A model generated the notes under the pieces. The model made no database searches and had not been told where the DNA came from. It was given only the letters and a program-made list of their open reading frames with translations. A stretch of DNA of 11,080 nt, from the IMG/VR virus record IMGVR_UViG_2778261641_000016. One strand, given 5' to 3'. Within the stretch, counting starts at the first letter, position 1. The number at the start of each line of letters is the position of its first letter. The position numbers and the translations under genes are program-made. Below, one piece after another: positions 1 through 11,080 of the stretch. Source of the stretch: a virus (lineage: Duplodnaviria; Heunggongvirae; Uroviricota; Caudoviricetes).

Positions 1-225
1 CAATATGGTGCCGCAGTAAAAGCGGCAGAAGCACAGCGACAGTCACTGATTGATACTGCAATGGCTTCCATTAGTCTGATTCAACTGAAATTACAGGCCG
101 GACGGGAGTTGACGCAGGCAGAAACAACCCGACTTAACGCTGTGCTGGATTACATTGACGCGGTGACGGCAACAGATACCAGCACCGCACCGGATGTCAT
201 CTGGCCTGAACTGCCGGAGGCGTAG
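1..225 (+). CDS. phage tail fiber assembly protein, C-terminal part (5' end outside window)
   Basis: Frame 1 is open from base 1 to TAG at 223-225. Translation ends ...TQAETTRLNAVLDYIDAVTATDTSTAPDVIWPELPEA*, which matches the conserved C-terminal tail of lambdoid/P2-type Tfa chaperones as I recall them. No start codon in the window. Confidence 0.75.
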   Translation, partial: QYGAAVKAAEAQRQSLIDTAMASISLIQLKLQAGRELTQAETTRLNAVLDYIDAVTATDTSTAPDVIWPELPEA

Positions 226-459
226 GCCATTCAATATCTGGCACACAGGACAAAACTGAGACACACAAGGCTTTGCACTGTATTGCAAGGCTTTGTTCTC
301 TCCTGTGGATGTGTGTCTACATATTTGAAGATTGTTGTGCCGTATTTGTGACATACGCATGACAACATCATGCATCAACTTTCTGTTTGTGCCATCAACT
401 ATAGCTTAGTGAATGCGGTTAATGCTTGCTAAAACAGATAGTTATGATTGGTGCTACAG

Positions 460-505
460 ATTCGTAATGCGAAGGTCGTAGGTTCGACTCCTATTATCGG
501 CACCA
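460..505 (+). pseudogene. 3' half of a tRNA-Thr gene (thrW-type, anticodon loop through CCA); attachment-site remnant
   Basis: ATTCGTAATGCGAAGGTCGTAGGTTCGACTCCTATTATCGGCACCA contains an anticodon loop TTCGTAA (CGT), T-arm GTAGG-TTCGACT-CCTAT, acceptor 3' strand TATCGGC, discriminator A and CCA. The matching 5' acceptor strand GCCGATA is absent upstream, so this is a fragment and not a functional tRNA. Identity to E. coli thrW is from memory. Confidence 0.65.
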
Positions 506-1085
506 TCAACAGAAAATCCCGTAAAAACAGCATTCTTTAGCATGTTTATCTAACGGTTTGTAACTTCTGTTCTAACGTCTGTTAGCACTGGTAAACGCCT
601 TTGCGTTGTATCGGCTCAAGTATTGTACAACGTACTGGCGGGTAGTTACCAGGCTCAAGCCCGAACAGCATTAGAAATTATGCCATCCCTTGAAGCTAAA
701 AGAGTTGCCGGACTCTCTAAACACATCACTTGAACCCTTAGCGATACGTTCCGCGCTTCGTGCGGCGCTCAATGATGCTACACGTCGAGATGACGTTGCA
801 GAAAATAAACAGGCGTAATGTTGGGAAGACTAACCGGATCGGGAAAGAATCCGGCTCTGCCACGGTTTCGATCACCGGAGTATAACGATCACCTGATAAG
901 AGAACGTGCTAAGGCTTTATCCTCCCTGCGAAGGGATTACACCCTGCGGAAGCGCTACGCGCCGCCTTTTCTTATGTGCCCAACACGGCACGTAATGGTC
1001 ATCCATTATCTGCACCATTGTAACTTTCGTTGTACTGCCTCTCTGATGTACGTTGAGCGCTGGCAGATTCAGCGGAGGGGATATC

Positions 1086-1244
1086 ATGTCAAAAGCTAAC
1101 CAAAAAGCAGCCACGAAGCGCAACAACCGTAAGATTCACGCCCGTAAATTCCTGGCAACACCAGAGGGGAAAGCCTGGCTTGCTAAGAAGCAGGAAGAGC
1201 GAGAGGAAATCAAGTTGGCGCGAGCTGCAAACTTGATGTTTTGA
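1086..1244 (+). CDS. small, strongly basic hypothetical protein (52 aa)
   Basis: ATG at 1086 lies 6 nt after SD GGAGGG (1074-1079), in frame with track ORF 1053..1244. Product MSKANQKAATKRNNRKIHARKF... is Lys/Arg-rich. Stop TGA 1242-1244. Confidence 0.45.
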   Translation: MSKANQKAATKRNNRKIHARKFLATPEGKAWLAKKQEEREEIKLARAANLMF

Positions 1245-1247
1245 GAT

Positions 1248-1263
1248 GGGGCTAATCAGCCCC
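1248..1263. terminator. GC hairpin between convergent genes (possible terminator)
   Basis: GGGGCT-AATC-AGCCCC perfect 6-bp stem immediately after the stop of the 1086..1244 gene. It overlaps the stop codon of the convergent minus-strand gene and has no adjacent U-tract, so function is uncertain. Confidence 0.3.
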
Positions 1264-2029
1264 TATTGCCCCTATGCTTTTTTTCGAATCTTGTCACAAC
1301 TCTATCCAACCATTTGGGTTCTTCTCTAAGATCTGAGTAGTAACAATTTTCTGGAACCGCGTTCCAGAAAGCAGTTATTGCGTTAGCAAAATCTACAAAT
1401 TGATCTTCTGAGACATGTAAATCGTCATGGTTAGGGACAATCTGCGTGCCTCTAACATCGGTGGGGTTTGGGTAATACTCAGGATGATCAACTGATAGTG
1501 TTTGATGTGCAGGGCCGTCTCCATGCTTGTATACGTTTACCACCAAGTTACAGGCTTTTATCCTTTCTCCGTATTCGGTTCCATTGATTGTGAGGCCAAT
1601 CCATTCGAGCAAATCAATTAGCTGATGGAAAGTTAAATTCCAGATCATGGGGGTAATCAATTCTCTTTCACACCAATTACTTAGCTCTTTGATAGTATGT
1701 TCTCTTAGTTTTTTATCAAACTGATGATACATACCTGCTGTCAACGCCAACAATACGGTATTTTGCATCTCCAGAAGCGACCGTACATAATAAATTCCCT
1801 CATGATAGGCTTGCTCGTAGGCCGCCATTGGGTCATCGTTATCTTGATCAAAATACTCAGCAGTAGTCTCCAAAAACTGTTGTTCTCTCTTCTCTGCTTC
1901 TTGTTCTAAATCACCAAACTGAGAGAGAAGCCGCCGCCTTGCCTCAGAAACGTAAAATTCATGGGGTTCAAGAAAGTATGGAAGATCGGCTCTGGCTAAC
2001 CAGAAGGTGACAAAATTTTCAGTAGACAT
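1256..2029 (-). CDS. hypothetical protein (257 aa), function unknown
   Basis: Long minus-strand ORF. Preferred start is the ATG at 2029 (MSTENFVTFW...), preceded by SD GAGGAA with 4-6 nt spacing; the track start at 2056 has no SD. No motif I can assign. Confidence 0.6.
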   Translation of the reverse strand: MSTENFVTFWLARADLPYFLEPHEFYVSEARRRLLSQFGDLEQEAEKREQQFLETTAEYFDQDNDDPMAAYEQAYHEGIYYVRSLLEMQNTVLLALTAGMYHQFDKKLREHTIKELSNWCERELITPMIWNLTFHQLIDLLEWIGLTINGTEYGERIKACNLVVNVYKHGDGPAHQTLSVDHPEYYPNPTDVRGTQIVPNHDDLHVSEDQFVDFANAITAFWNAVPENCYYSDLREEPKWLDRVVTRFEKKHRGNRG

Positions 2030-2192
2030 ACATTTCCTCAATGAAGCGATAGACATTTTGAGGTTATGTTATCTTCGGTGAGGGTTAAAATCCTCAACTG
2101 ATTCAATGGAATTGTCATTTGGTTTGAAATGCGGTAAAAGAATAAAATTCGTAATGTACGCTTTGCAGAAACAATCTGAAAATGAGGTGGTT

Positions 2193-2420
2193 ATGAGTGA
2201 ACGTTACGAATTTTTACCCAATTGCTTCCTGAAAGTCTCTATCTCATCGGGTTACTTTACTGCCATCCTTGATGGTTCGCTTCCTCCTGATACCCCTGGT
2301 TCTGTTCATGCTGATAATGCCACGCAAGTCATAATCGTACTCGATTCCTACTTCCAATTGACTGACTTACAGCATCAAGGAATTGCTAATTATCTTTGCT
2401 CTCAAGGGATGGAACTTTGA
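2193..2420 (+). CDS. hypothetical protein (75 aa)
   Basis: ATG at 2193 preceded by SD GAGGTGG (2184-2190), in frame with track ORF 2106..2420. Divergent from the 257-aa gene. Confidence 0.4.
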   Translation: MSERYEFLPNCFLKVSISSGYFTAILDGSLPPDTPGSVHADNATQVIIVLDSYFQLTDLQHQGIANYLCSQGMEL

Positions 2421-2875
2421 TAGATTGGTTGCTTAATGTTGATAATCTGACCATGCTTGCCGCATGGGCTGGGTTTGCACTATCCATTTTCCAGCTATTA
2501 AAATCCAGAACAGATCTACGCCTTTTCTTAGGTTGCGATCAGTATGAAGACAGAATTTATGTTTCCAACAAAAGCGCCCATGATGTGACGATAAGTTCGG
2601 CGGGCATAGTAACCGCCAGCGGACGCCTTAGCGATTGTTCTAACGAACATTGTGATGAATACATGATCAGCCCCATGTTGCCACGCCGATTAAAAGCCCG
2701 TGATGAAATGATCTTAGAAGTACCATTCATCAATAAGGCTCACCATAATAAGGTGCATCATCGCGGAGGGGTGTATGTTACTACATCTGATGGGAAGCTG
2801 TTCAGTGATGTTAGTTGGCTGCGTCGTCGCTGGTGGTGGATATTGTCTCTGATCCTACGTGATTCCAAGCAGTGA
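2417..2875 (+). CDS. hypothetical protein with N-terminal hydrophobic (probable transmembrane) segment
   Basis: ORF in track (2396..2875) overlaps the stop of the upstream gene. Possible starts are TTG 2417 (after AGGGA at 2405-2409) or ATG 2453; the start is uncertain. Segment LAAWAGFALSIFQLL is hydrophobic. Confidence 0.4.
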   Translation: MIDWLLNVDNLTMLAAWAGFALSIFQLLKSRTDLRLFLGCDQYEDRIYVSNKSAHDVTISSAGIVTASGRLSDCSNEHCDEYMISPMLPRRLKARDEMILEVPFINKAHHNKVHHRGGVYVTTSDGKLFSDVSWLRRRWWWILSLILRDSKQ

Positions 2876-2933
2876 TTACTTATACACCGCACCAGACCAC
2901 GCTGGTTATCTGCTTGTCTTCCTTCTTCAATTG

Positions 2934-3131
2934 TTACTCCTCTTCAAAGGTCATTGTGTAGCGGCATTGCTGCGACGGCCTGAGCGTCACTGTCTCCGTA
3001 AAGTTGGCGTTGGAATAAACGCAAATCTTCGCGTTGTCTGTCTCCTGTTCGTCACTGAGAATCAGGGTTATCTGTCCGGCATTCGCCAGGACTGGCATTA
3101 CTGTCAGCGTCAGCACAAGCAAGCGTTTCAT
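2934..3131 (-). CDS. small secreted protein with Sec-type signal peptide (65 aa)
   Basis: ATG at 3131 preceded by perfect SD AAGGAG with 6-nt spacing. N-terminus MKRLLVLTLTVMPVLANA has an n-h-c signal-peptide layout. The SD overlaps the stop of the upstream recombinase gene, suggesting co-transcription. Confidence 0.55.
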   Translation of the reverse strand: MKRLLVLTLTVMPVLANAGQITLILSDEQETDNAKICVYSNANFTETVTLRPSQQCRYTMTFEEE

Positions 3132-3141
3132 GCGTATCTCC

Positions 3142-3702
3142 TTATAAGTCCATCTCATTGATCACACGGCTAACGGCTTGCTTGTCTAAATCCAGATAGC
3201 GCCTGGTGTCAGTGATGTTGCTGTGATTAAGCACGGTCATAGCTAAAGCGATGTTGTTTGCTGAACGCTTGTAGATGGCATTCCCGCCAGCTTTGCGGAA
3301 GCTGTGAGCTGATACAGTGCCATGAATACCGATAGCTTTAGCGGCCTCTGCGATCTGCTTGCTCACTTCTTCGCGTCGTACAGGCGCTTGCTTGTTCATT
3401 GATCGGTTACGCTGGCTTCTGAACACATGCACATCATGCGGATACTCAGCACGGCGACGAGCAATCATCTGCACCACTGGAGCAGGGAGAGTGAGGGCTT
3501 TACGCTTCCCTGTCTTCTGTTCTTCTATGTCAATCTCACCGTTGATCACTTCGTCGAAGCGTAACGCTACGGCATCCCCCACACGCAGTACAGCGGCTTG
3601 CATCATTAACGTAACGTCAGCTATCAGGCTCTTGTTATGAGCGTTTAGCCACTCCCTGATCGCTTTGGCTTGCTGTTCGTCTAACACTACTGCTCTGTTC
3701 AA
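3142..3702 (-). CDS. small tyrosine recombinase (catalytic domain only; FimB/FimE-size integrase/invertase, or truncated integrase)
   Basis: Product carries the catalytic signature in order: Arg in VLRVGDAVALRFDEV, HxxR in HSFRK, and HSNITDTRRY near the C-terminus. Probable start TTG at 3702 after SD GGGAGGG; the track start at 3774 is also TTG but has no SD. There is no N-terminal arm/core-binding domain. Confidence 0.65.
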   Translation of the reverse strand: MNRAVVLDEQQAKAIREWLNAHNKSLIADVTLMMQAAVLRVGDAVALRFDEVINGEIDIEEQKTGKRKALTLPAPVVQMIARRRAEYPHDVHVFRSQRNRSMNKQAPVRREEVSKQIAEAAKAIGIHGTVSAHSFRKAGGNAIYKRSANNIALAMTVLNHSNITDTRRYLDLDKQAVSRVINEMDL

Positions 3703-3799
3703 TTTACCCTCCCATAAAGACACACATCTAAACTCAACGAAACAAACAATATGATCAATTTCAGTAAGTTGCAATATAAATGATCAAAAATCGAACTGT

Positions 3800-4009
3800 C
3801 TTGTGTGTGGTAAATGGCGCGATTGCGTCCAGTGCTTAACGACCTCCAGGGCCGCCTCCAGATCGAAAATTTCTTCTCCTCTAAATATCTTGAACAAAAT
3901 CATGATGTTGGCATTTATAAACATGTGTTTGAACATTGCCAAATCCTCAACTCTGCACGAAGAACAGCGGCAACAGCGGAACATCACACTACCAATGCTT
4001 GTGTGTGGT
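3800..4009. repeat. pair of 12-bp direct repeats CTTGTGTGTGGT (3800-3811 and 3998-4009)
   Basis: Exact 12-mer present twice, 198 bp apart, directly upstream of the recombinase gene. Confidence 0.4.
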
Positions 4010-4080
4010 TATTGTCTATCTCATTGATTTAAATCTGATAAATGTAAGGTTGTTAGGCGAGGGCGGGGCTAACCTGCCTG

Positions 4081-4109
4081 TATGCACAAATTATGCGGAG
4101 TTTATGCAC
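4081..4109 (+). repeat. three TATGC(A/G) direct repeats phased at 11 bp (iteron-like)
   Basis: TATGCAC at 4081, TATGCGG at 4092, TATGCAC at 4103, with exact helical-turn spacing, directly after a GC box GGCGAGGGCGGGG (4056-4068). Confidence 0.4.
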
Positions 4110-4460
4110 TTGAAACTGAGTGTGTAATGAAATGATTAGAATGCTAATCAATTGGTGGATTTTGGCATGAAAAAGAAACATCGTTTCATTTTAGAAAACT
4201 CGTTCAGCACATTGCACCTGTCATGAAACTCCTCATTGTGGACAATGATCGCTGTGAGCCGCATGGCGCAAGGCTTTACGCAAAGTGAGTGATGGTTACT
4301 ATCTTGCTGACTATGGCAACTTTACCCATGTAACAACGGCAATCTTTACCTGTCATTTAAGATAGGCTTAGCTATGATTATCGTGTTGTTTTGATAGGAA
4401 TAACCTCTCGTTACTCTTAGTGTTGTTGCATGGATGAATCAGAGTTAGTTGGGGGCGTTA

Positions 4461-4541
4461 TACATCAAAATGATGTATAGATGCATGGGATACGCATCAA
4501 ATTGATGTATGGATCGGCAAACTACACATCAAATTGATGTT
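4461..4541. promoter_or_regulatory. array of three inverted-repeat sites CATCA-N3-TGATG phased at 32 bp (operator-like)
   Basis: tACATCAAAATGATGTa (centre 4469), cGCATCAAATTGATGTa (centre 4501), cACATCAAATTGATGTt (centre 4533). Half-site copies recur at the downstream promoters. Confidence 0.5.
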
Positions 4542-5091
4542 CTATACAAAGAGATTCTAAAAGCGATCTCTAAAAGAGAGCTTTTAGAAGATCTTGTTAA
4601 AGATTCGCTTTGCTGGCGCGTATCGCCTGGCAAGTGACCTGATTCGCCTTTGGGGGCTACTCGGTCAGCCGCTCACGACGCAGCGTAGCGCATCTGTCTG
4701 TGATTGTGCCAGGGCTTCGCCCTCGTGAAACGAGGCACAGAAGCTATGCGCCGTGTGCGCAATGTCTTTCAGCATAACTTCTGCCTGTCTTCCATGCTCC
4801 GCATTCATCCATGCAAAGTTAGCCCACGGCTAAGGATTCACTGGTCGCTGATGGCTCCAGTTCATCCAGCCTCAATCCAATACCATCACCTACTATCCTG
4901 ATAACTAACGTTATCCCTCAGTAGTTGTGCTATTGGTTTCGGGAGTAAGTGCCAGAGGGCGGCGGTAACGCAAACGGAACGCCCCAGACGCGCTGAGAGC
5001 GAATTTGAGAGGATAGGGAGGGGATTGCAACTCTCAGGCTTTCAAACCTGTTAGAAAGCGATAGACCGCGTTTTATGATGACATGAATGAA

Positions 5092-5120
5092 TTGATCACA
5101 ACGTGGAAATGCGCTATAAT
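5092..5120 (+). promoter_or_regulatory. sigma70-like promoter (TTGATC - 17 bp - TATAAT)
   Basis: -35 TTGATC at 5092-5097, 17-nt spacer, perfect -10 TATAAT at 5115-5120; points into the downstream operon. Confidence 0.5.
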
Positions 5121-5142
5121 TTGAAAGGGATTTAAATAAGTG

Positions 5143-5171
5143 TTGACATTTAAATCATTTCATGTTAAAGT
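5143..5171 (+). promoter_or_regulatory. second tandem sigma70-like promoter (TTGACA - 17 bp - TAAAGT with TG extension)
   Basis: Perfect -35 TTGACA at 5143-5148, 17-nt spacer, -10 TAAAGT at 5166-5171 preceded by TGt. The half-site AAATGATGTA (5172-5181) sits at the predicted transcription start. Confidence 0.45.
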
Positions 5172-5266
5172 AAATGATGTAGGGTAATGAAAGCATTCAT
5201 CCCGTCCTCATCTCAGGCATCCAGCCTAACGCAAACAATCCAACTTACACCGCACTATCAGGCAAC

Positions 5267-5515
5267 GTGATTAACGTTCTCCCTGGATGGTGTTTCTGTG
5301 TTTCTAACGCAAGGAGAACCAAAATTAAGTATTTTAATCCAGAACTTGTCTTCGAGGCTTTAAAGGCCGGAAGCCAGACGCGAAATGCAATAAACAGCCA
5401 GCGAGCAGCCGCACAACGGCAAGGATATTTCGAACACGCTGAAAGATTGCGTAAAGGAATCGAACTTTACGATCAATGGAAAGCTGAACAGGCTGAAACC
5501 ACCACCAACGAATAA
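5267..5515 (+). CDS. hypothetical protein; start codon uncertain
   Basis: Open frame in track from GTG 5267 to TAA 5513-5515. A strong SD AAGGAGAA (5311-5318) lies inside it but no in-frame ATG/GTG/TTG follows within 15 nt; only ATT at 5325. Confidence 0.35.
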   Translation: MINVLPGWCFCVSNARRTKIKYFNPELVFEALKAGSQTRNAINSQRAAAQRQGYFEHAERLRKGIELYDQWKAEQAETTTNE

Positions 5516-5533
5516 ACCAGAAGGAGAAACCAA

Positions 5534-5710
5534 ATGAGCGAAATCCAGAAGAAGAAACCAGCCGGAACATTCGTAAAACTGCCGGATGAAGTGTTTAGTA
5601 CTTTGTTCAAAGAGGCGCGAGCGAGAGGCGTAACAGTGCAGGAGATGTTAATTGACGCTGCAACCACACTTTCCACATCAATTAAGAACGGAGAACGTTC
5701 TACCAAATAA
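5534..5710 (+). CDS. small DNA-binding protein, ribbon-helix-helix-like (58 aa)
   Basis: ATG 5534 is 7 nt after perfect SD AAGGAG (5521-5526). Product MSEIQKKKPAGTFVKLPDEVFSTLFKEARARGVTVQEMLIDAA... has the beta-strand/helix/helix pattern of Arc/CopG-type proteins. Not in the ORF track because it is under 60 aa. Confidence 0.55.
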   Translation: MSEIQKKKPAGTFVKLPDEVFSTLFKEARARGVTVQEMLIDAATTLSTSIKNGERSTK

Positions 5711-5724
5711 GGATACACCCTAAC

Positions 5725-6465
5725 ATGACTGACATTATAAACAGTAAGGCTTTTAGTTTCACCAACACCGAAGACGCATTTAACGAATGCACCAGGATCA
5801 CCAATCTTAAAACAGGCGTAACAGAGTCCCTGTCTCCTGCTGATAAGCAGTTTTACGTCAGAATGCGCCATCGTTATTATCGCTTTGCGATAGAGTTGGG
5901 CGGTACTTATTACGATGACATTGATCAACTTGGTGCAAGTATTGGTGTCAGCTCGGCTACGGCAACACGTATTGTTGCAAAGTTGAAGAAAATCGGACTG
6001 ATCGCCAGTAATAAGCCAAAGCGCTCTAACCAATGGACTATAACGCCACTCACGCCGCAAAACTTCACCTTTGAACGTGATCGTAATGCGATGGAACGTG
6101 ATTCCGCGCCGGAATGGGTAGATTGTCTGAAACATCCCGTGTTTGGCAAAGCTAAAGAAGACGTAGCGCCAGAGGAAGAAAAACAGCAGTCAGTGCCAGA
6201 AGAGGCCAAAGCAGATCCGAAGCCGGAGAAGCCAAAGAAAATGCCTACGAAGAAACCCGCCTCCATTCCAGCTAAAGATATTAAGATAGAGCCAGTTAAT
6301 TTAAACTTTCTTGAGGGTTATCGGGATGAATGGGAGAATCCTGAAAAGAATCTACCAGTTTCACAACATCCGAAAATCAGATGGCTACTTATTAACGGAT
6401 ACCTGGACACAGAGAAGAATCCAAAACTTAAACCAATCTACGAGGAAATAGAACATTTATGCTGA
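5725..6465 (+). CDS. winged-helix DNA-binding protein with long Pro/Lys/Glu-rich linker (possible phage O-type replication initiator or regulator)
   Basis: 246-aa ORF. The N-terminal part has an HTH-like segment (DIDQLGASIGVSSATATRIVAKLKKIGLIAS), followed by a low-complexity linker (EEEKQQSVPEEAKADPKPEKPKKMPTKKPASIP). The domain layout resembles replisome-organiser proteins; assignment is from pattern only. Confidence 0.6.
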   Translation: MTDIINSKAFSFTNTEDAFNECTRITNLKTGVTESLSPADKQFYVRMRHRYYRFAIELGGTYYDDIDQLGASIGVSSATATRIVAKLKKIGLIASNKPKRSNQWTITPLTPQNFTFERDRNAMERDSAPEWVDCLKHPVFGKAKEDVAPEEEKQQSVPEEAKADPKPEKPKKMPTKKPASIPAKDIKIEPVNLNFLEGYRDEWENPEKNLPVSQHPKIRWLLINGYLDTEKNPKLKPIYEEIEHLC

Positions 6466-6920
6466 AAACGGTTATACCCAAACAATACAACGAACGTGAT
6501 CTTAACATCATCCATCTTGCCAGTTTATTAAATCCAGAAGTTGAAAGAGGTGTTGCATTCGAACAAGCGCAAGAACTTGTAGATGTTTACGCTGAGCGAG
6601 GTGAATCAAGTTACGCTAATGCTCTTGTTACGCTATTCAATGCAGCGATGAAGCCACCGAAAGAGATAGAATGTAAAATGACATCCCCACATCTTCACGA
6701 TAAGAATCTGTCTCCTTCGGAACGTCTGGTATTAATGCACCTCGAATCACTGCCATCATTAACAAATGTGAAACAGGAGTCAATAGCGATAGTGTTGGGG
6801 ATAAGTGTGGCAACTGTATCCAGTGCGATTCGCAAGCTTCGCCGCAATGATTATCTAACTACTACGTTAATCAAACCTGGTCGCGGTAAAGGATGCGACA
6901 TTACACTTACGACTAAATAA
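6459..6920 (+). CDS. hypothetical protein with C-terminal winged-helix DNA-binding motif (153 aa)
   Basis: Start overlaps the upstream stop (ATGCTGA), implying translational coupling. C-terminal region SPSERLVLMHLESL...ESIAIVLGISVATVSSAIRKLRRNDYL is HTH-like. Confidence 0.55.
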   Translation: MLKTVIPKQYNERDLNIIHLASLLNPEVERGVAFEQAQELVDVYAERGESSYANALVTLFNAAMKPPKEIECKMTSPHLHDKNLSPSERLVLMHLESLPSLTNVKQESIAIVLGISVATVSSAIRKLRRNDYLTTTLIKPGRGKGCDITLTTK

Positions 6921-7024
6921 CAACAATCGGGAAACTTTTATGATTACTGCTTTATGGTGGTTCACCATATTCTATGGCGTTTACGTTATAACCAGACAAG
7001 GAGTTTCCCCTCTACGAGGAATGA

Positions 7025-7408
7025 ATGGGACGAAAAGAACGAAGTAACCTTGTTAGAATCGAAAAAGCCACACGCATCAGCAAACGTAAATACACCTCTT
7101 CTCTACAAGACCTCGCACGAGAGTCTATTCCTGGTGAGATGGTGACAACTATTAAAGAATATCCCGCAGTAGTACCAAATGGATTAGAGTTTGAACTATT
7201 GCAGGATGTTCTATCGTCAACGGATAACGTTTATTACAAACCACGACGCAGACGCGAATATATTATAGATAGTAGCCATCTCAAGAAATGGCAAATAGCA
7301 GGATTTGAACATTACGCCGATTATATTGGGTATTGTCAAACCTGGGGGCTATCCCAGCACACACAAGAGTTTGATATTCTCTTTGACGACAAGGAAAACA
7401 ATGAATAA
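7025..7408 (+). CDS. hypothetical protein (127 aa), basic N-terminus
   Basis: ATG 7025 is 5 nt after GAGG (7016-7019). Its stop overlaps the next start (ATGAATAA). Confidence 0.5.
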   Translation: MGRKERSNLVRIEKATRISKRKYTSSLQDLARESIPGEMVTTIKEYPAVVPNGLEFELLQDVLSSTDNVYYKPRRRREYIIDSSHLKKWQIAGFEHYADYIGYCQTWGLSQHTQEFDILFDDKENNE

Positions 7409-7739
7409 TAAAACTATGGACACAGTGAACACCCTAATTAACTCTTTCCACGACAACTGGCATTTACCAACCTTACAGCTTGTTAATGCAGCGTGGCGTG
7501 AGAGAACGCCCTCCGCGCTTCTGGAAGCGGTGCAATACACTGAACAGGCAATCACTGCCCTTGAACATCTGCAAACGTCTGTAGCTCGTTTGGTGCAGCG
7601 TGACGGCAGTTCGATCACACCAGAAGAAGCGTGGCGTGTAGCTAATGACCTTGAGGAGCTTGCTTGCTCTCTGCAATACATCACCGTTGAACTCGGAGAG
7701 CTTTCCATCCAGATCGCGGAAGAATGCGCCATAACATAA
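7401..7739 (+). CDS. hypothetical protein (112 aa)
   Basis: ATG 7401 is 5 nt after AAGGA (7391-7395), in frame with track ORF 7305..7739. The longer track start has no SD. Stop TAA 7737-7739. Confidence 0.55.
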   Translation: MNNKTMDTVNTLINSFHDNWHLPTLQLVNAAWRERTPSALLEAVQYTEQAITALEHLQTSVARLVQRDGSSITPEEAWRVANDLEELACSLQYITVELGELSIQIAEECAIT

Positions 7740-7754
7740 AAGTTACTAAATGTC

Positions 7755-7783
7755 TTGACATTATGTGCTATATGTGTCATAAT
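7755..7783 (+). promoter_or_regulatory. near-consensus sigma70 promoter (TTGACA - 17 bp - TGtCATAAT)
   Basis: Perfect -35 TTGACA at 7755-7760, 17-nt spacer, extended -10 TGtCATAAT (7775-7783). It starts 16 bp after the stop of the upstream operon. Confidence 0.6.
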
Positions 7784-7789
7784 GAGTTA

Positions 7790-8334
7790 TAGGGTAAGTA
7801 TTCGAATCACTTCACCCTCGTATGTCAATACGCACTCCTTGAGAATGCCGTTCCCATAGCGGCATTCTCTCCCTCTGAATGCTATTTCTGAAAGTGTTGG
7901 TTCTTTGTCTTGTTTGTTCCGAAGGAATGCGCGGGATGTAATATCTCGTTGTGTTGGTATTGCATCGCAATCACCGCGCATCTCCGACTTTTTCAGAAAG
8001 GGCATTCGCTCTTTGCTCATTCATTCCGTTAGGATGAATGTAGTCAGACTGAATAAACGCCGTCAGCGGTAGTTACGTTCAGGCTGGCAATCTCTTATTA
8101 CTATTCCAGTGGTGATATTGAGATTCCATTCCCACTTCTCGCCATGACAGAAGGGCTTCTGTTTTGAAGTGGGAGCAATGACGGGCGATCCTACTTCTGT
8201 TATTCGTAACAGTTGCGCCCTTCATTTTTTCAAGAAGCCATTCTTTAACATCATAATCCTCCGAAACGAAAATGATTTTAACAGAATGCTTTCTAACAAG
8301 GGCATATTCTCCAGGGGCTTAATCGCCCCTTTTT
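7790..8334 (+). ncRNA. candidate ~545-nt non-coding leader transcript (promoter to intrinsic terminator); speculative
   Basis: No plus-strand ORF of 60 aa or more between the promoter and the terminator. Contains a perfect 10-bp stem hairpin (7841-7850 / 7860-7869). Only short ORFs without credible SD. Confidence 0.3.
8313..8334 (+). terminator. rho-independent terminator
   Basis: GGGGC-TTAATC-GCCCC stem-loop (8314-8329) followed directly by TTTTT (8330-8334). Confidence 0.6.
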
Positions 8335-8405
8335 AACAATCTGCATGTAACACTTCCGTTATCAATGGAAGGATAAACGCAGTTATAACGCGAAGGAACA
8401 ACACA

Positions 8406-8621
8406 ATGTTCTTAATAAACAATCGCGACCGAATCCTAAAATACAAATCCGAAGTGATTCAAGTTAATCCTGAGTTAATAGCTAAAGTGGCTGAAATGGC
8501 AGGATGTACCGTTGAAGAAATAGAAAAAGCTGTAGACCAGTATTTCCCTTCTGAGGACACACCTCAACTTAGTATGCAGGAACGGATCGCAATCAAATCC
8601 AAGGAAATCAAACAACAATGA
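8406..8621 (+). CDS. small hypothetical protein (71 aa), first gene of the head operon
   Basis: ATG 8406 is 7 nt after SD GAAGGAA. Its stop overlaps the start of the next gene (ATGA), implying translational coupling. Confidence 0.55.
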   Translation: MFLINNRDRILKYKSEVIQVNPELIAKVAEMAGCTVEEIEKAVDQYFPSEDTPQLSMQERIAIKSKEIKQQ

Positions 8622-8977
8622 TTGTAGACCTAACCGAACTTTTCCCAATTCGTAAGAGTTTCACTGACGTATTGAGCTACGCCACTGATTCTTTTGCAGT
8701 CGTAGAAGGCCGTGTTTTCGACCTGCCAGCAGATATTGAATGCGGCGATGTTATCGGCGCTGATGGCGCTCTATACACCTCCGGCGATGATGCCTTTGTG
8801 GTGGTAAGTGATTTCGTGAGTGCTGGCGACGGTAAAACCGTGAATGTCCTACGTGCGCCTAATGTTGGTAGCTTCGTAGCACTGAAAGCCGACAACCTGC
8901 ACGCAGCTAATCACGCCGCAGCTATCACCACGCTCGAATCCAAAGGGTTCGTATGCCGTCCATTCTTCACCTCTTAA
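8618..8977 (+). CDS. probable phage head decoration protein (119 aa)
   Basis: Gly/Ala/Asp/Val-rich small protein encoded immediately upstream of the major capsid gene, the same position as gpD before gpE in lambda-like heads. Assignment rests on position and composition, not on recognised sequence identity. Confidence 0.5.
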   Translation: MIVDLTELFPIRKSFTDVLSYATDSFAVVEGRVFDLPADIECGDVIGADGALYTSGDDAFVVVSDFVSAGDGKTVNVLRAPNVGSFVALKADNLHAANHAAAITTLESKGFVCRPFFTS

Positions 8978-8993
8978 TCAAGGAAGATAAATA

Positions 8994-10025
8994 ATGAGTA
9001 AAATCGCAATTGGGCGTGAGATGGTCGATTTAGCGCCAATCTTCCAGGCTCTGCCGGAACGTAACTATCTTATGAATGCCCTCGACCTATTCGACGGGGT
9101 AGGTGTTCAGAATCCGAAAGTGGTGGTGACACAGCTTCTGGATGATAACTACAGCCTGTTTAACACCCCGCAGAGCCGTTATTCATCAAACCACGACACT
9201 ACCGCGCGTCAGAATGGCAAAGAATACCTTATCGAGATTCCTTGGTTTGCAAGGGAAGATGAGTTTAAACCTGTAGACGTACAAGGCCGCAGAGTGCAGG
9301 GAACGGACTACGAGCAAACCGTTACCGACCTGTACACCGAATACACTGGCAAACATAAGATTGCTTATCTGCGTACCCGTGAGTCTTACCTGGCCCGTGC
9401 TCTGTTCAAAGGTGAAGTTTATACGCCTGCAACTGATGACCTACTGATCTCTTATGCTGAACTGTTCGGTGTGGTGCCAATGACAGCCAGCGTGAGCACA
9501 GCGACAGCGGCACAGGATTTTGATGCGATCTTAGACAAAGTTCAGGCTGCCGCAGGTGGATTGGCTGGACAGATTGAACGAGTGATCGTATTCGCTAAAC
9601 CTGCTGCATTTAGCCAGATTCGCTTCTCTGACAGTATGTCTAAGGCGTTCCAGTATGTAGCGCCATATGACGACCGTAACCTATTCTACCAGCGTCACGA
9701 GCTTCTCCCTGGTGTTAGTACGTTTAGCCTACCTGGTGCGCCTATCGACATTGTTAAAGTGACAGATCCGCTGATCCTTGCACAGATGCCAGATGATGCT
9801 GACATGGTGGCGGTTCCGGTGTTCAGTAAAGGCACAAATGCTTATCAGAACATCTACGGCGCTGCCTCTGGTAACTTTGCGCTGATCGATGCTGCACCTG
9901 CTGAATACTACTCTTGGGGCTACCTGAGCGAGCGCGGCGATGCTTACCACGTTATGCACGAAAACAGCGCATTACCAGTGAACCATGCGTTAGGTATGCA
10001 GGTGAAGATCACCATCACTGCTTAA
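8994..10025 (+). CDS. phage major capsid protein, lambda gpE-like (343 aa)
   Basis: ATG 8994 after AAGGAAG. Length matches the 341-aa lambda E protein, and local blocks (ALFKGEVY, VIVFAKP...F) resemble E-family blocks as I recall them. It follows the decoration-like gene. Confidence 0.75.
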   Translation: MSKIAIGREMVDLAPIFQALPERNYLMNALDLFDGVGVQNPKVVVTQLLDDNYSLFNTPQSRYSSNHDTTARQNGKEYLIEIPWFAREDEFKPVDVQGRRVQGTDYEQTVTDLYTEYTGKHKIAYLRTRESYLARALFKGEVYTPATDDLLISYAELFGVVPMTASVSTATAAQDFDAILDKVQAAAGGLAGQIERVIVFAKPAAFSQIRFSDSMSKAFQYVAPYDDRNLFYQRHELLPGVSTFSLPGAPIDIVKVTDPLILAQMPDDADMVAVPVFSKGTNAYQNIYGAASGNFALIDAAPAEYYSWGYLSERGDAYHVMHENSALPVNHALGMQVKITITA

Positions 10026-10088
10026 TGAGCAAGCGGGAGCCTGACCCGCTGGAAATAATCAGGCTATTGAATAGGGCGTGTGAACGTT

Positions 10089-10121
10089 GGGAACATCTCC
10101 CCAGTGTTCCCGCCCTTTTTT
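10089..10121 (+). terminator. probable intrinsic terminator after the capsid gene
   Basis: GGGAACA-(9 nt loop)-TGTTCCC stem (10089-10111), then GCCC and TTTTTT (10116-10121). Confidence 0.45.
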
Positions 10122-10144
10122 ATTTCCAGAATGAGGAAAGATAA

Positions 10145-10342
10145 ATGCAAGTGATTGTAAAAAGCGCGGGGCTTCACCTCGCCGTAAATGCTGAAACAGC
10201 AGAAGAGTTATTAAATCTGGCGGGAGTGTGTCGTGTGCTTGAAATAGATCACGGTCATCTACGTCAGTTATTACATCGTGGGCGTAGTGTATCAGATGCA
10301 CTTAATTATCTGGTGAGTAAAAAAGGCGGTGGCGATGCTTGA
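10145..10342 (+). CDS. hypothetical protein (65 aa)
   Basis: ATG 10145 after strong SD GAGGAAAG. Its stop overlaps the start region of the next ORF. Confidence 0.5.
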   Translation: MQVIVKSAGLHLAVNAETAEELLNLAGVCRVLEIDHGHLRQLLHRGRSVSDALNYLVSKKGGGDA

Positions 10343-10799
10343 GATTAATACAAGTAAGATCGTCAACACCGTAACTTTCACCGTTGACAAAGGGAGTATT
10401 GCAGAGGCTAAGGCCGCAGCGGATAACCTTCAAAAGCACTTCCAGAAAATAGCCGATCCCAAGATTCGCTTCCAGGATCTGAAGCAGCGCAGACAGAAAG
10501 CCCGTCAACAAGCCGATGATGCACGTTTTAATGATAAGCCTCGTGATACGAAGGAAATGAAAGCCCAACGTGCGGCGGAGAAGCAGAAAGCCAGGGATGA
10601 AAAGGCCAATCTGAAAGCGAAGCAGCAGCTACAGAAGCGCCAAGAGACAGCCGAGCTTAAACTTCGCCATGCAGGGCTACAAGTGTCAGGAATTAAAGGT
10701 AAATACGGGCTTGATCCTAAATCTCAGTATGAAGCGTTACGTTATATTCATCAGCAAAGCGAAGAGTTTGCGAAAAGGGTATTAACTTTCGCAGCCTGA
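10329..10799 (+). CDS. hypothetical protein, highly charged Lys/Arg/Glu/Gln-rich central region (156 aa)
   Basis: Track ORF overlapping the upstream stop (start ATG 10329 or 10335). Its last ~8 codons are read out of frame from invertase-homologous DNA. Confidence 0.5.
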   Translation: MAMLEINTSKIVNTVTFTVDKGSIAEAKAAADNLQKHFQKIADPKIRFQDLKQRRQKARQQADDARFNDKPRDTKEMKAQRAAEKQKARDEKANLKAKQQLQKRQETAELKLRHAGLQVSGIKGKYGLDPKSQYEALRYIHQQSEEFAKRVLTFAA

Positions 10800-11080
10800 C
10801 CGACAGCATAGATACGTCTTCACCAATGGGACGCTTTTTCTTCCATGTCATGGGCGCACTTGCAGAAATGGAAAGGGAGCTGATAGTCGAACGTACCAGG
10901 GCGGGATTGGCTGCGGCTCGTGAAGAAGGGCGAATAGGTGGGCGTCGATCAAAGCTAACTGATGAACAGTGGGCGCAGGCAGGCAGGTTGATTGCAGCAG
11001 GTGAATCACGACAGCGTGTGGCATTAATTTACGATGTTGGGATATCGACGCTATATAAAAAATTTCCGGCAACCAGGTAA
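10772..11080 (+). pseudogene. serine DNA invertase (Pin/Gin/Hin family) C-terminal fragment, lacking the catalytic N-terminus; runs off the window end
   Basis: Translation EKGINFRSLTDSIDTSSPMGRFFFHVMGALAEMERELIVERTRAGLAAAREEGRIGGRRSKLTDEQWAQAGRLIAAGESRQRVALIYDVGISTLYKKFPATR closely matches the C-terminal half of e14 Pin as I remember it. The frame is closed by TGA at 10730-10732 and no serine-nucleophile N-terminal domain exists in any frame upstream. Confidence 0.65.

What the first reader, a model, noticed from the sequence alone, without database searches (positions are those of the whole stretch)
1256..3131. Four uncharacterised cargo genes between the att remnant and the small recombinase
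A 257-aa cytoplasmic protein, a 75-aa protein, a ~150-aa membrane protein and a 65-aa secreted protein are arranged in divergent/convergent units directly beside a recombinase and a tRNA att remnant. This is a typical position for phage-defence or other accessory cargo. None carries a motif I recognise, so any defence or toxin role is hypothesis only.
Basis: inference. Interest (0 to 1): 0.45.

Follow-up and report, generated by a model that had tools for sequence, protein, structure and literature searches.

The report
Swappable cargo slot of satellite-like element
The four small genes are real and sit in the exchangeable cargo slot of a rare phage-satellite-like island, and one of them belongs to a large unnamed protein family whose predicted fold resembles HEPN RNA-cutting toxins, so they are plausible but unproven anti-phage genes.

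Summary
All four ORFs match RefSeq gene calls in nine identical E. coli copies, have homologs elsewhere and show purifying selection (dN/dS 0.11-0.54). Relatives with conserved flanks differ exactly across window 1173..3140, so this is a replaceable cargo slot. In other relatives it holds a SieB superinfection-exclusion gene, a YecR lipoprotein, secreted proteins or a four-gene operon.

The four genes form three units, not one system.
- P2-P3 is a translationally coupled pair: a small acidic protein and a membrane-anchored protein. It is largely confined to Enterobacterales.
- P4 is a secreted peptide co-transcribed with the small recombinase. Its mature part is hypervariable.

P1-P2-P3 form a 1.63-kb cassette shared at 87% identity by two very different backbones.

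An anti-phage role is supported only circumstantially. No known defence system is present.

The parts
460..505 (+). 3' 46 nt of tRNA-Thr (thrW): the attL core, or 'att remnant', at the left end of the element
   Evidence: Identical to the 3' part of the thrW tRNA of E. coli AR_0128, while the sequence upstream differs. No complete tRNA is found in the window. Homology to the E. coli copies starts at 460.
1086..1244 (+). Conserved 52-aa very basic protein (pI 10.8), the left conserved flank of the slot
   Evidence: PGAP-called. 73% identical homologs occupy the same position in L016 and L018. Nucleotide homology to the variants ends at 1172.
1256..2029 (-). P1: 257-aa acidic cytoplasmic protein with a HEPN-like all-helical fold and the signature V164-N165-x-Y-K168-H169-G-x-G172. 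Stand-alone mobile gene.
2030..2192 (.). Divergent intergenic region between P1 and P2, presumed to hold promoters; it is carried inside the shared cassette
   Evidence: It lies within the continuous 86.8% match 1298..2929 to L029. A 19-nt inverted repeat at 2144-2162/2196-2214 spans the P2 start. Promoter function was not tested.
2193..2420 (+). P2: 75-aa acidic (pI 4.2) cytoplasmic protein, the upstream partner of P3
   Evidence: An RBS (GAGGTGG) precedes the ATG. Nine clusters, all Enterobacterales, and located directly upstream of P3 in every locus that contains P3. dN/dS 0.33-0.54.
2417..2875 (+). P3: 152-aa basic protein with an N-terminal hydrophobic anchor, a beta-rich middle and an Arg/Trp-rich C-terminal helix. 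Translationally coupled to P2 (TTGA overlap).
   Evidence: Sequence. 32 clusters at 65% identity or more, plus a distant Pseudomonas plasmid homolog at HMM E=3e-17. The AF2 model is low-confidence, so only secondary structure is used. dN/dS 0.11.
2934..3131 (-). P4: 65-aa pre-protein with a Sec signal peptide (cleavage predicted after ANA) and a 47-aa mature peptide with two Cys. Co-transcribed downstream of the small recombinase.
   Evidence: Its start lies 10 nt after the recombinase stop, with an AAGGAG RBS. phrog_4641 at 7e-15. Homologs occur in Phapecoctavirus and other lytic phages. A P4-like gene follows the recombinase in L019-L021 and L029. The mature part is hypervariable.
3142..3702 (-). 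Small (186-aa) tyrosine recombinase with the catalytic domain only: the right conserved flank of the slot
   Evidence: PF00589 at 3.9e-16. 96-99% identical in elements integrated at tRNA-Thr, tRNA-Leu and tRNA-Gly. dN/dS 0.02-0.06. The complete element has a separate 407-aa integrase at its far end.

Best explanation
Window 1173..3140 is the exchangeable accessory slot of a rare integrative element of about 13.7 kb that inserts at tRNA genes. The element carries a lambda-E-type capsid gene and a tape-measure-like gene but no portal or terminase, so it is probably a phage satellite.

Shown:
- The slot is bounded by a conserved 52-aa gene on the left and a conserved small tyrosine recombinase on the right.
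- It holds different genes in different relatives.
- Here it holds three independent, selectively maintained units.

Inferred function: the units act as phage-exclusion or abortive-infection cargo that benefits the element and its host.
1. P1 is a stand-alone HEPN-fold protein. It most likely acts as a latent cytoplasmic RNase-type or nucleotide-binding effector that is triggered on infection. Its active site would be built around the invariant N165/K168/H169-G-x-G loop rather than the canonical Rx4-6H motif.
2. P2-P3 is a translationally coupled pair. The basic P3 is anchored in the inner membrane with its body in the cytoplasm. The small acidic P2 holds it in check, so the pair behaves as a toxin-antitoxin-like or Sie-like membrane module.
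3. P4 is exported to the periplasm. Its fast-changing mature peptide acts at the envelope, for example by blocking entry of superinfecting phage DNA or a phage lysozyme.
For: Slot status:
- Homology breaks at 1172 and 3141 against L016 and L018.
- At least five alternative cargo sets occupy the slot.
- These include SieB (PF14163, 1.5e-27) and YecR.

Real genes:
- dN/dS is below 1 for all four, and all have homologs.

Modularity:
- The 1,633-bp cassette 1298..2929 is 86.8% identical in L029. L029's recombinase and capsid are only 23% and 22% identical to the window's.
- P2-P3 occur without P1 in Serratia and Gibbsiella.
- P1 occurs without P2-P3 in eight or more contexts.
- P4 is linked to the recombinase in both lineages.

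P1 fold:
- pLDDT is 91.5.
- There are faint hits of family members to PADLOC HEPN models.
- The invariant His with a conserved Asn four residues upstream mirrors the N...H of the canonical R-N-x-x-x-H.

P1 neighbourhoods:
- EcoRII-type restriction-modification genes plus AbiEii.
- AbiJ, AAA_15/21 and UvrD genes.
- DUF262 and a superinfection-immunity gene.
- A prophage end after the tail fibre gene.

P3 and P4 features.
Against: - None of the four proteins hits PADLOC, Pfam or NCBIfam.
- The canonical catalytic Arg is absent: V164 occupies its place, and R161 of the family consensus is Asn in this protein.
- P1 has no match in 50,697 phage genomes.
- Some P1 neighbours are anti-defence genes (ArdA, KlcA, PsiB and Tad2-like).
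- The P3 model is unreliable (pLDDT 46), and its hydrophobic segment is only moderate.
- P2 has no recognisable DNA-binding or antitoxin domain.
- There is no functional evidence of any kind.
Confidence: 0.5

Rival explanations
1. P1, P2 and P3 form one three-gene system: a HEPN-like effector with a membrane-anchored sensor or partner and a small regulator, transcribed divergently from a shared control region. They are not independent modules.
For: The three genes and their intergenic region move as one continuous 1.63-kb cassette between two very different backbones. P1 and P2 homologs are also paired divergently in L026 at much deeper divergence, 70% and 51% identity.
Against: P2-P3 occur without P1 in the Serratia loci L012-L015 and in Gibbsiella. 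P1 homologs occur without P2 or P3 on plasmids, a phage-plasmid, a prophage and islands. HMM searches of all fetched loci find no hidden P3-like or P1-like partner.
Confidence: 0.15
2. The cargo serves counter-defence or the satellite's own life cycle. For example, P1 might neutralise a host immune system or manipulate the helper phage, rather than protect the host from phages.
For: P1 homologs lie beside a Tad2-like gene on a P1/P7-like phage-plasmid. On a Pantoea plasmid they lie within the leading region among ArdA, an Antirestrict-family gene, PsiA and PsiB. P4 homologs are carried by strictly lytic phages among early or DNA-metabolism genes.
Against: In the Pantoea plasmid the P1 homolog is on the opposite strand to the leading-region genes. 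As far as I know, HEPN folds are typical of toxins and defence effectors, not of known anti-defence proteins. The same slot holds SieB, a host-protective exclusion gene, in a relative.
Confidence: 0.15
3. The genes have nothing to do with phages. P2-P3 is simply an addiction (toxin-antitoxin) module that stabilises the island, and P4 and P1 are host-fitness or envelope 'moron' genes.
For: P2 plus a truncated P3 persist in a decayed thrW island in Gibbsiella. The layout of a small acidic upstream gene overlapping a larger basic downstream gene is the classical type II toxin-antitoxin arrangement. Other slot variants carry lipoproteins and secreted proteins of unknown role.
Against: There is no match to any toxin or antitoxin family. 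P4's pattern, a hypervariable mature peptide behind a conserved signal peptide, suggests an antagonistic interaction rather than housekeeping. P1's contexts are rich in defence and anti-defence genes.
Confidence: 0.18
4. The ORFs are non-functional remnants or chance reading frames.
For: They have no family annotation, the genes are short, and the element copy in this window is truncated at 10774.
Against: dN/dS is 0.11-0.54. Lengths are conserved across 40-90% identical homologs. P2 and P4 are preceded by ribosome-binding sites, and P3's TTG start overlaps the P2 stop. The P1 family is large, and the P1 structure prediction is confident.
Confidence: 0.02

Closest known systems
HEPN toxins of HEPN-MNT toxin-antitoxin systems (e.g. 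Shewanella SO_3166, PDB 5YEP; Aphanizomenon HEPN toxin, 7AE2/8XDJ)
   Different: P1 is twice as long. No MNT (nucleotidyltransferase) antitoxin gene is adjacent in any context. P1 lacks Rx4-6H and has V-N-x-Y-K-H-G-x-G instead. There is no detectable sequence similarity.
Single-gene HEPN abortive-infection and defence proteins (AbiD/AbiF, AbiJ, AbiU2, AbiV, ApeA, RT-associated HEPN of DRT systems); the comparison with the lactococcal Abi genes rests on my own knowledge
   Same: They are stand-alone or self-contained HEPN-domain genes carried on plasmids, prophages and islands. A few P1 relatives give faint hits to the ApeA, RTasHEPN and CARF_HEPN models of PADLOC (E about 1e-3).
   Different: The window protein itself hits none of them. 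No Pfam HEPN or Abi model is matched by any of 61 relatives. The motif is non-canonical. Activity has not been tested.
Defence hotspots of P4-like satellites and P2-like phages (abstract of PMC13586616, seen; Rousset et al. 2022 from my own knowledge)
   Same: Both have a short variable region flanked by conserved core genes near one end of an integrated satellite. The region holds rapidly swapped cassettes that are shared between different backbones.
   Different: The element family is different: a Phage_cap_E capsid, a tape-measure-like gene, a DUF6945/HTH_36 replication module and a small extra recombinase, with no P4 hallmark genes. None of the cargo here is a recognised defence system.
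Superinfection-exclusion proteins (SieB of P22/lambda; T4 Imm and the periplasmic Sp); the comparison rests partly on my own knowledge
   Same: A SieB-family gene occupies the equivalent slot in relative L017. P3 is a small membrane-anchored protein, and P4 is a small periplasmic protein also encoded by lytic phages.
   Different: P3 and P4 have no sequence similarity to the SieB or Imm_superinfect Pfam models. The mechanism is unknown.
Type II toxin-antitoxin modules
   Same: In P2-P3 a small acidic upstream gene overlaps the start of a larger basic downstream gene by 4 nt, and the pair is retained in a decayed island.
   Different: There is no match to any toxin or antitoxin family. P3 is predicted to be membrane-anchored, which is unusual for type II toxins. 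In Pseudomonas the P3-like gene has a different upstream partner.

Membership tests
HEPN superfamily (P1) | Four-helix up-down bundle core, the HEPN fold | tested here: met
HEPN superfamily (P1) | Conserved Rx4-6H catalytic motif | tested here: not met
   The most conserved motif is V164-N165-V-Y-K168-H169-G170-D-G172. The residue before N165 is Val in at least 90% of members. The consensus R161 lies 7 residues before H169 and is Asn in this protein.
HEPN superfamily (P1) | Sequence match to a curated HEPN family model | tested here: not met
   The window protein has no Pfam, NCBIfam or PADLOC hit. Among 61 relatives there is no Pfam HEPN model at E<=1, and only faint PADLOC hits to ApeA, RTasHEPN and CARF_HEPN.
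HEPN superfamily (P1) | Metal-independent RNase activity | not testable with these tools
   This needs purified protein, or in vivo RNA cleavage mapping with H169A, K168A and N165A controls.
Known anti-phage defence systems (PADLOC-DB v2.0) | Match of at least one protein to a defence-system model | tested here: not met
   P1, P2, P3, P4 and the small recombinase all give zero families at E<=0.1.
Accessory or defence hotspot of an integrated satellite | Variable gene content between conserved flanking core genes in related elements | tested here: met
   Breakpoints lie at 1172 and 3141. Five or more alternative contents were seen. The cassette is shared between backbones.
Accessory or defence hotspot of an integrated satellite | Recognised defence or exclusion genes present in the slot of some members | tested here: met
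   SieB (PF14163, 1.5e-27) lies in the slot of L017. Only one such case was found, and most of the cargo is unannotated.
Phage satellite (the host element) | Integrase, a replication module and some helper-related structural genes, but no complete virion or packaging gene set | tested here: met
   Present: a 407-aa integrase, a DUF6945 protein (with replication-initiator PHROG hits) and an HTH_36 protein, a Phage_cap_E capsid and a tape-measure-like protein. No portal, terminase or protease is annotated in the roughly 13.7-kb element. Induction and transfer by a helper phage were not tested.
Type II toxin-antitoxin pair (P2-P3) | Two small co-directional, overlapping genes | tested here: met
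   The P2 stop (TGA, 2418-2420) overlaps the P3 start (TTG, 2417-2419). The pair is conserved in every locus that contains P3.
Type II toxin-antitoxin pair (P2-P3) | Recognisable toxin or antitoxin domain, and toxicity neutralised by the partner | tested here: not met
   No family hit was found in Pfam, NCBIfam, PHROGs or PADLOC. Toxicity and neutralisation cannot be tested here.
Integron-like cassette platform (small recombinase plus slot) | IntI-type integrase and repeated attC-like sites bounding co-oriented cassettes | tested here: not met
   The recombinase scores 20 bits against the integron-integrase model, whose cut-off is 265. No repeated boundary sites were found. The genes lie in mixed orientation.
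Sec-exported periplasmic protein (P4) | Signal peptide with a basic n-region, a hydrophobic h-region and an AxA cleavage motif, and no lipobox Cys | tested here: met
   The sequence is MKRLLVLTLTVMPVLANA|GQ. The Kyte-Doolittle maximum is 1.64 over residues 4-25. The signal peptide is conserved in homologs. The assessment is by inspection; no dedicated predictor was available.

The most novel reading that the evidence does not exclude
P1 represents a large, unrecognised branch of HEPN-like proteins: more than 1,300 clusters at 50% identity, from Gammaproteobacteria to Firmicutes, with no Pfam model. This branch has replaced the canonical Rx4-6H site with a (V)NxxKHGxG loop and acts as a self-contained abortive-infection effector. 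In addition, the slot next to the small recombinase in this undescribed capsid-bearing satellite family is a reservoir of new exclusion genes, including the P2-P3 membrane module and a hypervariable periplasmic peptide, P4.
Probability: 0.3. Interest if true: 0.6.

Novelty: new variant of a known kind. Interest (0 to 1): 0.42.

Why it matters
Variable slots on satellites and prophages have been the richest source of new anti-phage systems. This one sits on an element type that the satellite papers I found in the library searches do not appear to describe.

It yields three concrete, clonable candidates. The most useful is P1. It has a confident structure, an obvious mutational target (N165/K168/H169) and more than a thousand relatives that currently have no annotation. 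A single positive phenotype would therefore annotate a large family and would test whether a HEPN fold can work without its canonical Arg-His site.

If no phenotype appears, this remains an ordinary patch of unknown mobile-element cargo.

Tried and rejected
- The AFDB50 fold library was unavailable.
- Foldseek of the P1 model against BFVD and against PDB gave nothing significant.
- Profile searches of the P1 family against PDB sequences gave only one spurious hit, or none.
- tblastn of P1 and P3 against 50,697 phage genomes gave no match.
- The P3 structure prediction failed (pLDDT 46), so I ran no fold search on it.
- I looked for a conserved partner of P1. Two similar-sized downstream neighbours, in Paraburkholderia and on a Klebsiella plasmid, are unrelated, and no partner recurs.
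- I considered an integron-like cassette platform and rejected it. The recombinase is not IntI-like, there are no attC-like repeats and the gene orientations are mixed.
- I considered a fim-like invertible switch using the perfect 14-bp inverted repeat at 4426/4803. All nine E. coli copies have the same orientation, and the repeat lies in the swappable replication block rather than next to the conserved recombinase. I did not pursue it.
- Rfam finds no RNA family in the window.
- A literature search for the RefSeq accessions of these proteins found nothing.
- I noticed a PilZ-like RxxxR/DxSxxG reading of P3 by eye and rejected it, because the motif order is wrong and there is no Pfam hit.
Full report
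**Where the window comes from.** Window 460..10774 is 99.7-100% identical to a chromosomal element found in nine complete E. coli genomes. In those genomes it lies immediately downstream of proA and tRNA-Thr (thrW) and runs for about 13.7 kb to a 407-aa tyrosine integrase. The element encodes a lambda-E-type major capsid protein (PF03864, 8.4e-15). It also encodes a 614-aa protein that PGAP names 'TolA' but that matches a tape-measure PHROG (phrog_16051, 2.5e-98). Its replication module contains a DUF6945 protein with weak PHROG matches to replication initiators, and an HTH_36 protein. No portal, terminase or protease is annotated. That gene content fits a phage satellite better than a prophage, although mobilisation was not tested. 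In this window the element begins with the 3' 46 nt of thrW (460..505). Sequence to the left of that is the end of a lambdoid prophage. The element is truncated at 10774.

**Checking the observation.** They are genuine genes.
- The P1 family has 57 clusters in a word-seeded search and 1,333 representatives (704 at E<=1e-10) in an exhaustive profile search.
- P3 has 32 clusters, and P2 has 9.
- P4 matches phrog_4641 and has homologs in 136 phage records.
- Nei-Gojobori dN/dS against diverged homologs is 0.15 for P1, 0.11 for P3, 0.33-0.54 for P2 and 0.22-0.37 for P4.
P1 and P2 have no hydrophobic segment. P3 has a moderately hydrophobic N-terminal segment followed by positive charges. P4 has a Sec signal peptide ending ANA|GQ with no lipobox.

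**Is it cargo?** Yes. Against variant elements in E. coli XYEH3934 (L016) and Citrobacter (L018), nucleotide homology runs from 460 to 1172, disappears, and resumes at 3141, the stop codon of the small recombinase. The same position holds other genes in relatives:
- a 126-aa protein, a YecR lipoprotein and a 136-aa protein in L016;
- a 189-aa protein, a SieB-family protein, a 110-aa protein and an IS3 in L017;
- a P4 homolog, a 155-aa protein and two secreted proteins in L019;
- a four-gene operon in L034 and L035.

SieB (PF14163, 1.5e-27) and YecR (PF13992) were confirmed. The backbone is rare: 18 of 5,426 complete E. coli genomes carry it, and nine of those have this cargo.

**The four genes are three units.**
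- *P4.* P4 starts 10 nt after the recombinase stop behind an AAGGAG ribosome-binding site. A P4-like gene follows the small recombinase in both backbone lineages (L019-L021 and L029). Its dN (0.44-0.52) and dS (1.2-2.0) far exceed those of the adjacent recombinase (dN 0.005-0.02, dS 0.24-0.35). In L019, homology to the window ends at 3063, just after the signal peptide. The exported mature peptide is therefore the variable part.
- *P2-P3.* P3's TTG start overlaps P2's TGA stop. The pair occurs together in Serratia, Gibbsiella and other Enterobacterales without P1, P4 or the recombinase. A distant P3-like ORF on a Pseudomonas syringae plasmid (HMM E=3e-17) has a different small upstream gene.
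- *P1.* P1 homologs occur alone in several settings: on a Paraburkholderia element beside an EcoRII-type restriction-modification system and AbiEii; in a Cupriavidus island with AbiJ, AAA_15/21 and UvrD genes; at a Moellerella prophage end after the tail fibre; in a Pantoea plasmid leading region (on the opposite strand to ArdA and PsiB); beside a Tad2-like gene on a P1/P7-like phage-plasmid; and on 124 plasmids, including a Klebsiella plasmid with DUF262 and a superinfection-immunity gene nearby. No neighbour recurs.

P1, P2 and P3 nevertheless travel together at short range. A single 1,633-bp alignment (1298..2929, 86.8% identity) links the window to metagenomic contig L029. L029's small recombinase and capsid are only 23% and 22% identical to the window's. 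A P1/P2 pair also occurs at 70% and 51% identity in L026.

**What P1 is.** No Pfam, NCBIfam or PADLOC model matches P1. Its only family match is phrog_19541, of unknown function. AlphaFold2 with a 51-sequence alignment gives a confident all-helical model (pLDDT 91.5, pTM 0.86).

- 1wwp, 1jog, Las1L, 8xdj, 2hsb and sacsin HEPN, with Csm6 and LsoA lower down.

There are two caveats.
- Foldseek does not reproduce the HEPN ranking, and sequence profiles see no HEPN family. The only sequence-level trace is faint PADLOC hits of a few relatives to the ApeA, RT-associated HEPN and CARF_HEPN models.
- The defining Rx4-6H motif is absent. Across the broad family the invariant residues are H169, G170 and G172, with V164, N165 and K168 conserved in at least 90% of members. 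N165 and H169 have the spacing of the canonical R-N-x-x-x-H motif, but the Arg position is Val. The consensus R161 is Asn in this protein.

I therefore file P1 as HEPN-like in fold, not as a member of a known HEPN family. Any RNase activity is inference.

**What P2-P3 and P4 are.** Nothing is known about them.
- The P3 model is unreliable (pLDDT 46). It supports only a layout of an N-terminal helix, a beta-rich body and a C-terminal Arg/Trp-rich helix.
- The charge distribution around the anchor suggests that the body of P3 is cytoplasmic (inference from the sequence).
- P2 is small and acidic (pI 4.2). The pair has a toxin-antitoxin-like layout, and P2 plus a truncated P3 survive in a decayed island.
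- P4's carriage by lytic Phapecoctavirus and related phages and its hypervariable mature peptide fit an envelope-level antagonistic function.

**Verdict.** The interpretation as accessory cargo is confirmed by comparative evidence. A phage-defence role remains a reasonable but untested hypothesis. It is strengthened by the HEPN-like fold of P1, by SieB in the same slot of a relative, and by the company P1 homologs keep. It is weakened by the lack of any match to known defence systems and by the non-canonical motif.

The idea of a variable defence slot on a satellite is established; the abstract of PMC13586616, seen, describes such hotspots in P4-like satellites and P2-like phages. What is new here is the element type, the unannotated HEPN-like family and the two unknown modules. 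I rate it a new variant of a known kind, of moderate interest.

Noticed in passing
window 460..10774 (complete copy: L002 4001..~17700): The host element looks like an undescribed satellite type. It has a Phage_cap_E capsid (8994..10025), a 119-aa gene at the position of a decoration protein (8618..8977), a 614-aa tape-measure-like protein (starting at about 10335) and a DUF6945/HTH_36 replication module. It carries two tyrosine recombinases but no portal, terminase or protease. Only 18 of 5,426 complete E. coli genomes carry this backbone. Two backbone lineages exist whose recombinases and capsids are 22-23% identical.
   Followed up: partly
window 3703..5266: A non-coding gap of about 1.5 kb between the small recombinase and the replication genes is present in all relatives. 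The part at 3141..4288 is 88% conserved even when both neighbouring blocks are swapped. The gap contains three 18-nt iterons (4459..4540, 32-nt spacing) and a perfect 14-bp inverted repeat (4426-4439/4803-4816). Rfam gives no hit. Its function (origin, pac site, regulatory RNA or recombinase target) is unknown.
   Followed up: partly
window 3142..3702 (-): The 186-aa tyrosine recombinase has only the catalytic domain. It is 96-99% identical (dN/dS 0.02-0.06) in elements integrated at tRNA-Thr, tRNA-Leu and tRNA-Gly, each of which has its own large integrase. It therefore probably does something other than integration. It is neither IntI-like nor a clear FimB/E relative.
   Followed up: partly
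window 1..459: The left flank is the end of a lambdoid prophage: a tail-fibre-assembly-like ORF at 61..225 and an attP-type arm at 236..459, 93-96% identical to thrW-integrating phages HK75 and mEp213. The element therefore sits in tandem with a possible helper phage at thrW.
   Followed up: partly
window 10775..11080: The element is truncated inside its tape-measure-like gene. It is joined to the 3' part of a serine recombinase (Pin/resolvase-like) gene, ORF 10826..11080. The copy in this window is therefore probably defective.
   Followed up: partly
window 4289..6918: This is a second swappable block. The replication module (82-aa, 58-aa, DUF6945 and HTH_36 proteins) is replaced by a DEAD/DEAH helicase in E. 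coli XYEH3934. It is shared at 87-91% identity with L029, which otherwise has a divergent backbone.
   Followed up: partly
L012 14721..16576 and L013 6220..8075: The Serratia relatives carry a DUF4062 plus DUF2971 gene pair in the middle of the element. This may be a second cargo or defence hotspot.
   Followed up: no
L034/L035 2369..4490: E. coli elements at tRNA-Gly (next to actS and xdhA) fill the slot with a co-directional four-gene operon (188, 165, 200 and 134 aa), all hypothetical. It is another unexplored candidate system.
   Followed up: no
L032 3429..3881 (Pseudomonas syringae plasmid pHelA): An unannotated ORF encodes a P3-like protein (HMM E=3e-17). It lies downstream of a 225-aa integrase, a PapB/FocB-type regulator and a small protein that I judge HTH-like by eye (it has no Pfam hit). 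This suggests the P3 family reaches beyond Enterobacterales with other partners.
   Followed up: partly
window 1247..1262: A GC-rich hairpin (GGGGCT-AATC-AGCCCC) lies between the convergent 52-aa gene and P1 and overlaps the P1 stop codon. It may be a bidirectional terminator, but no adjacent T-run follows it on either strand.
   Followed up: no
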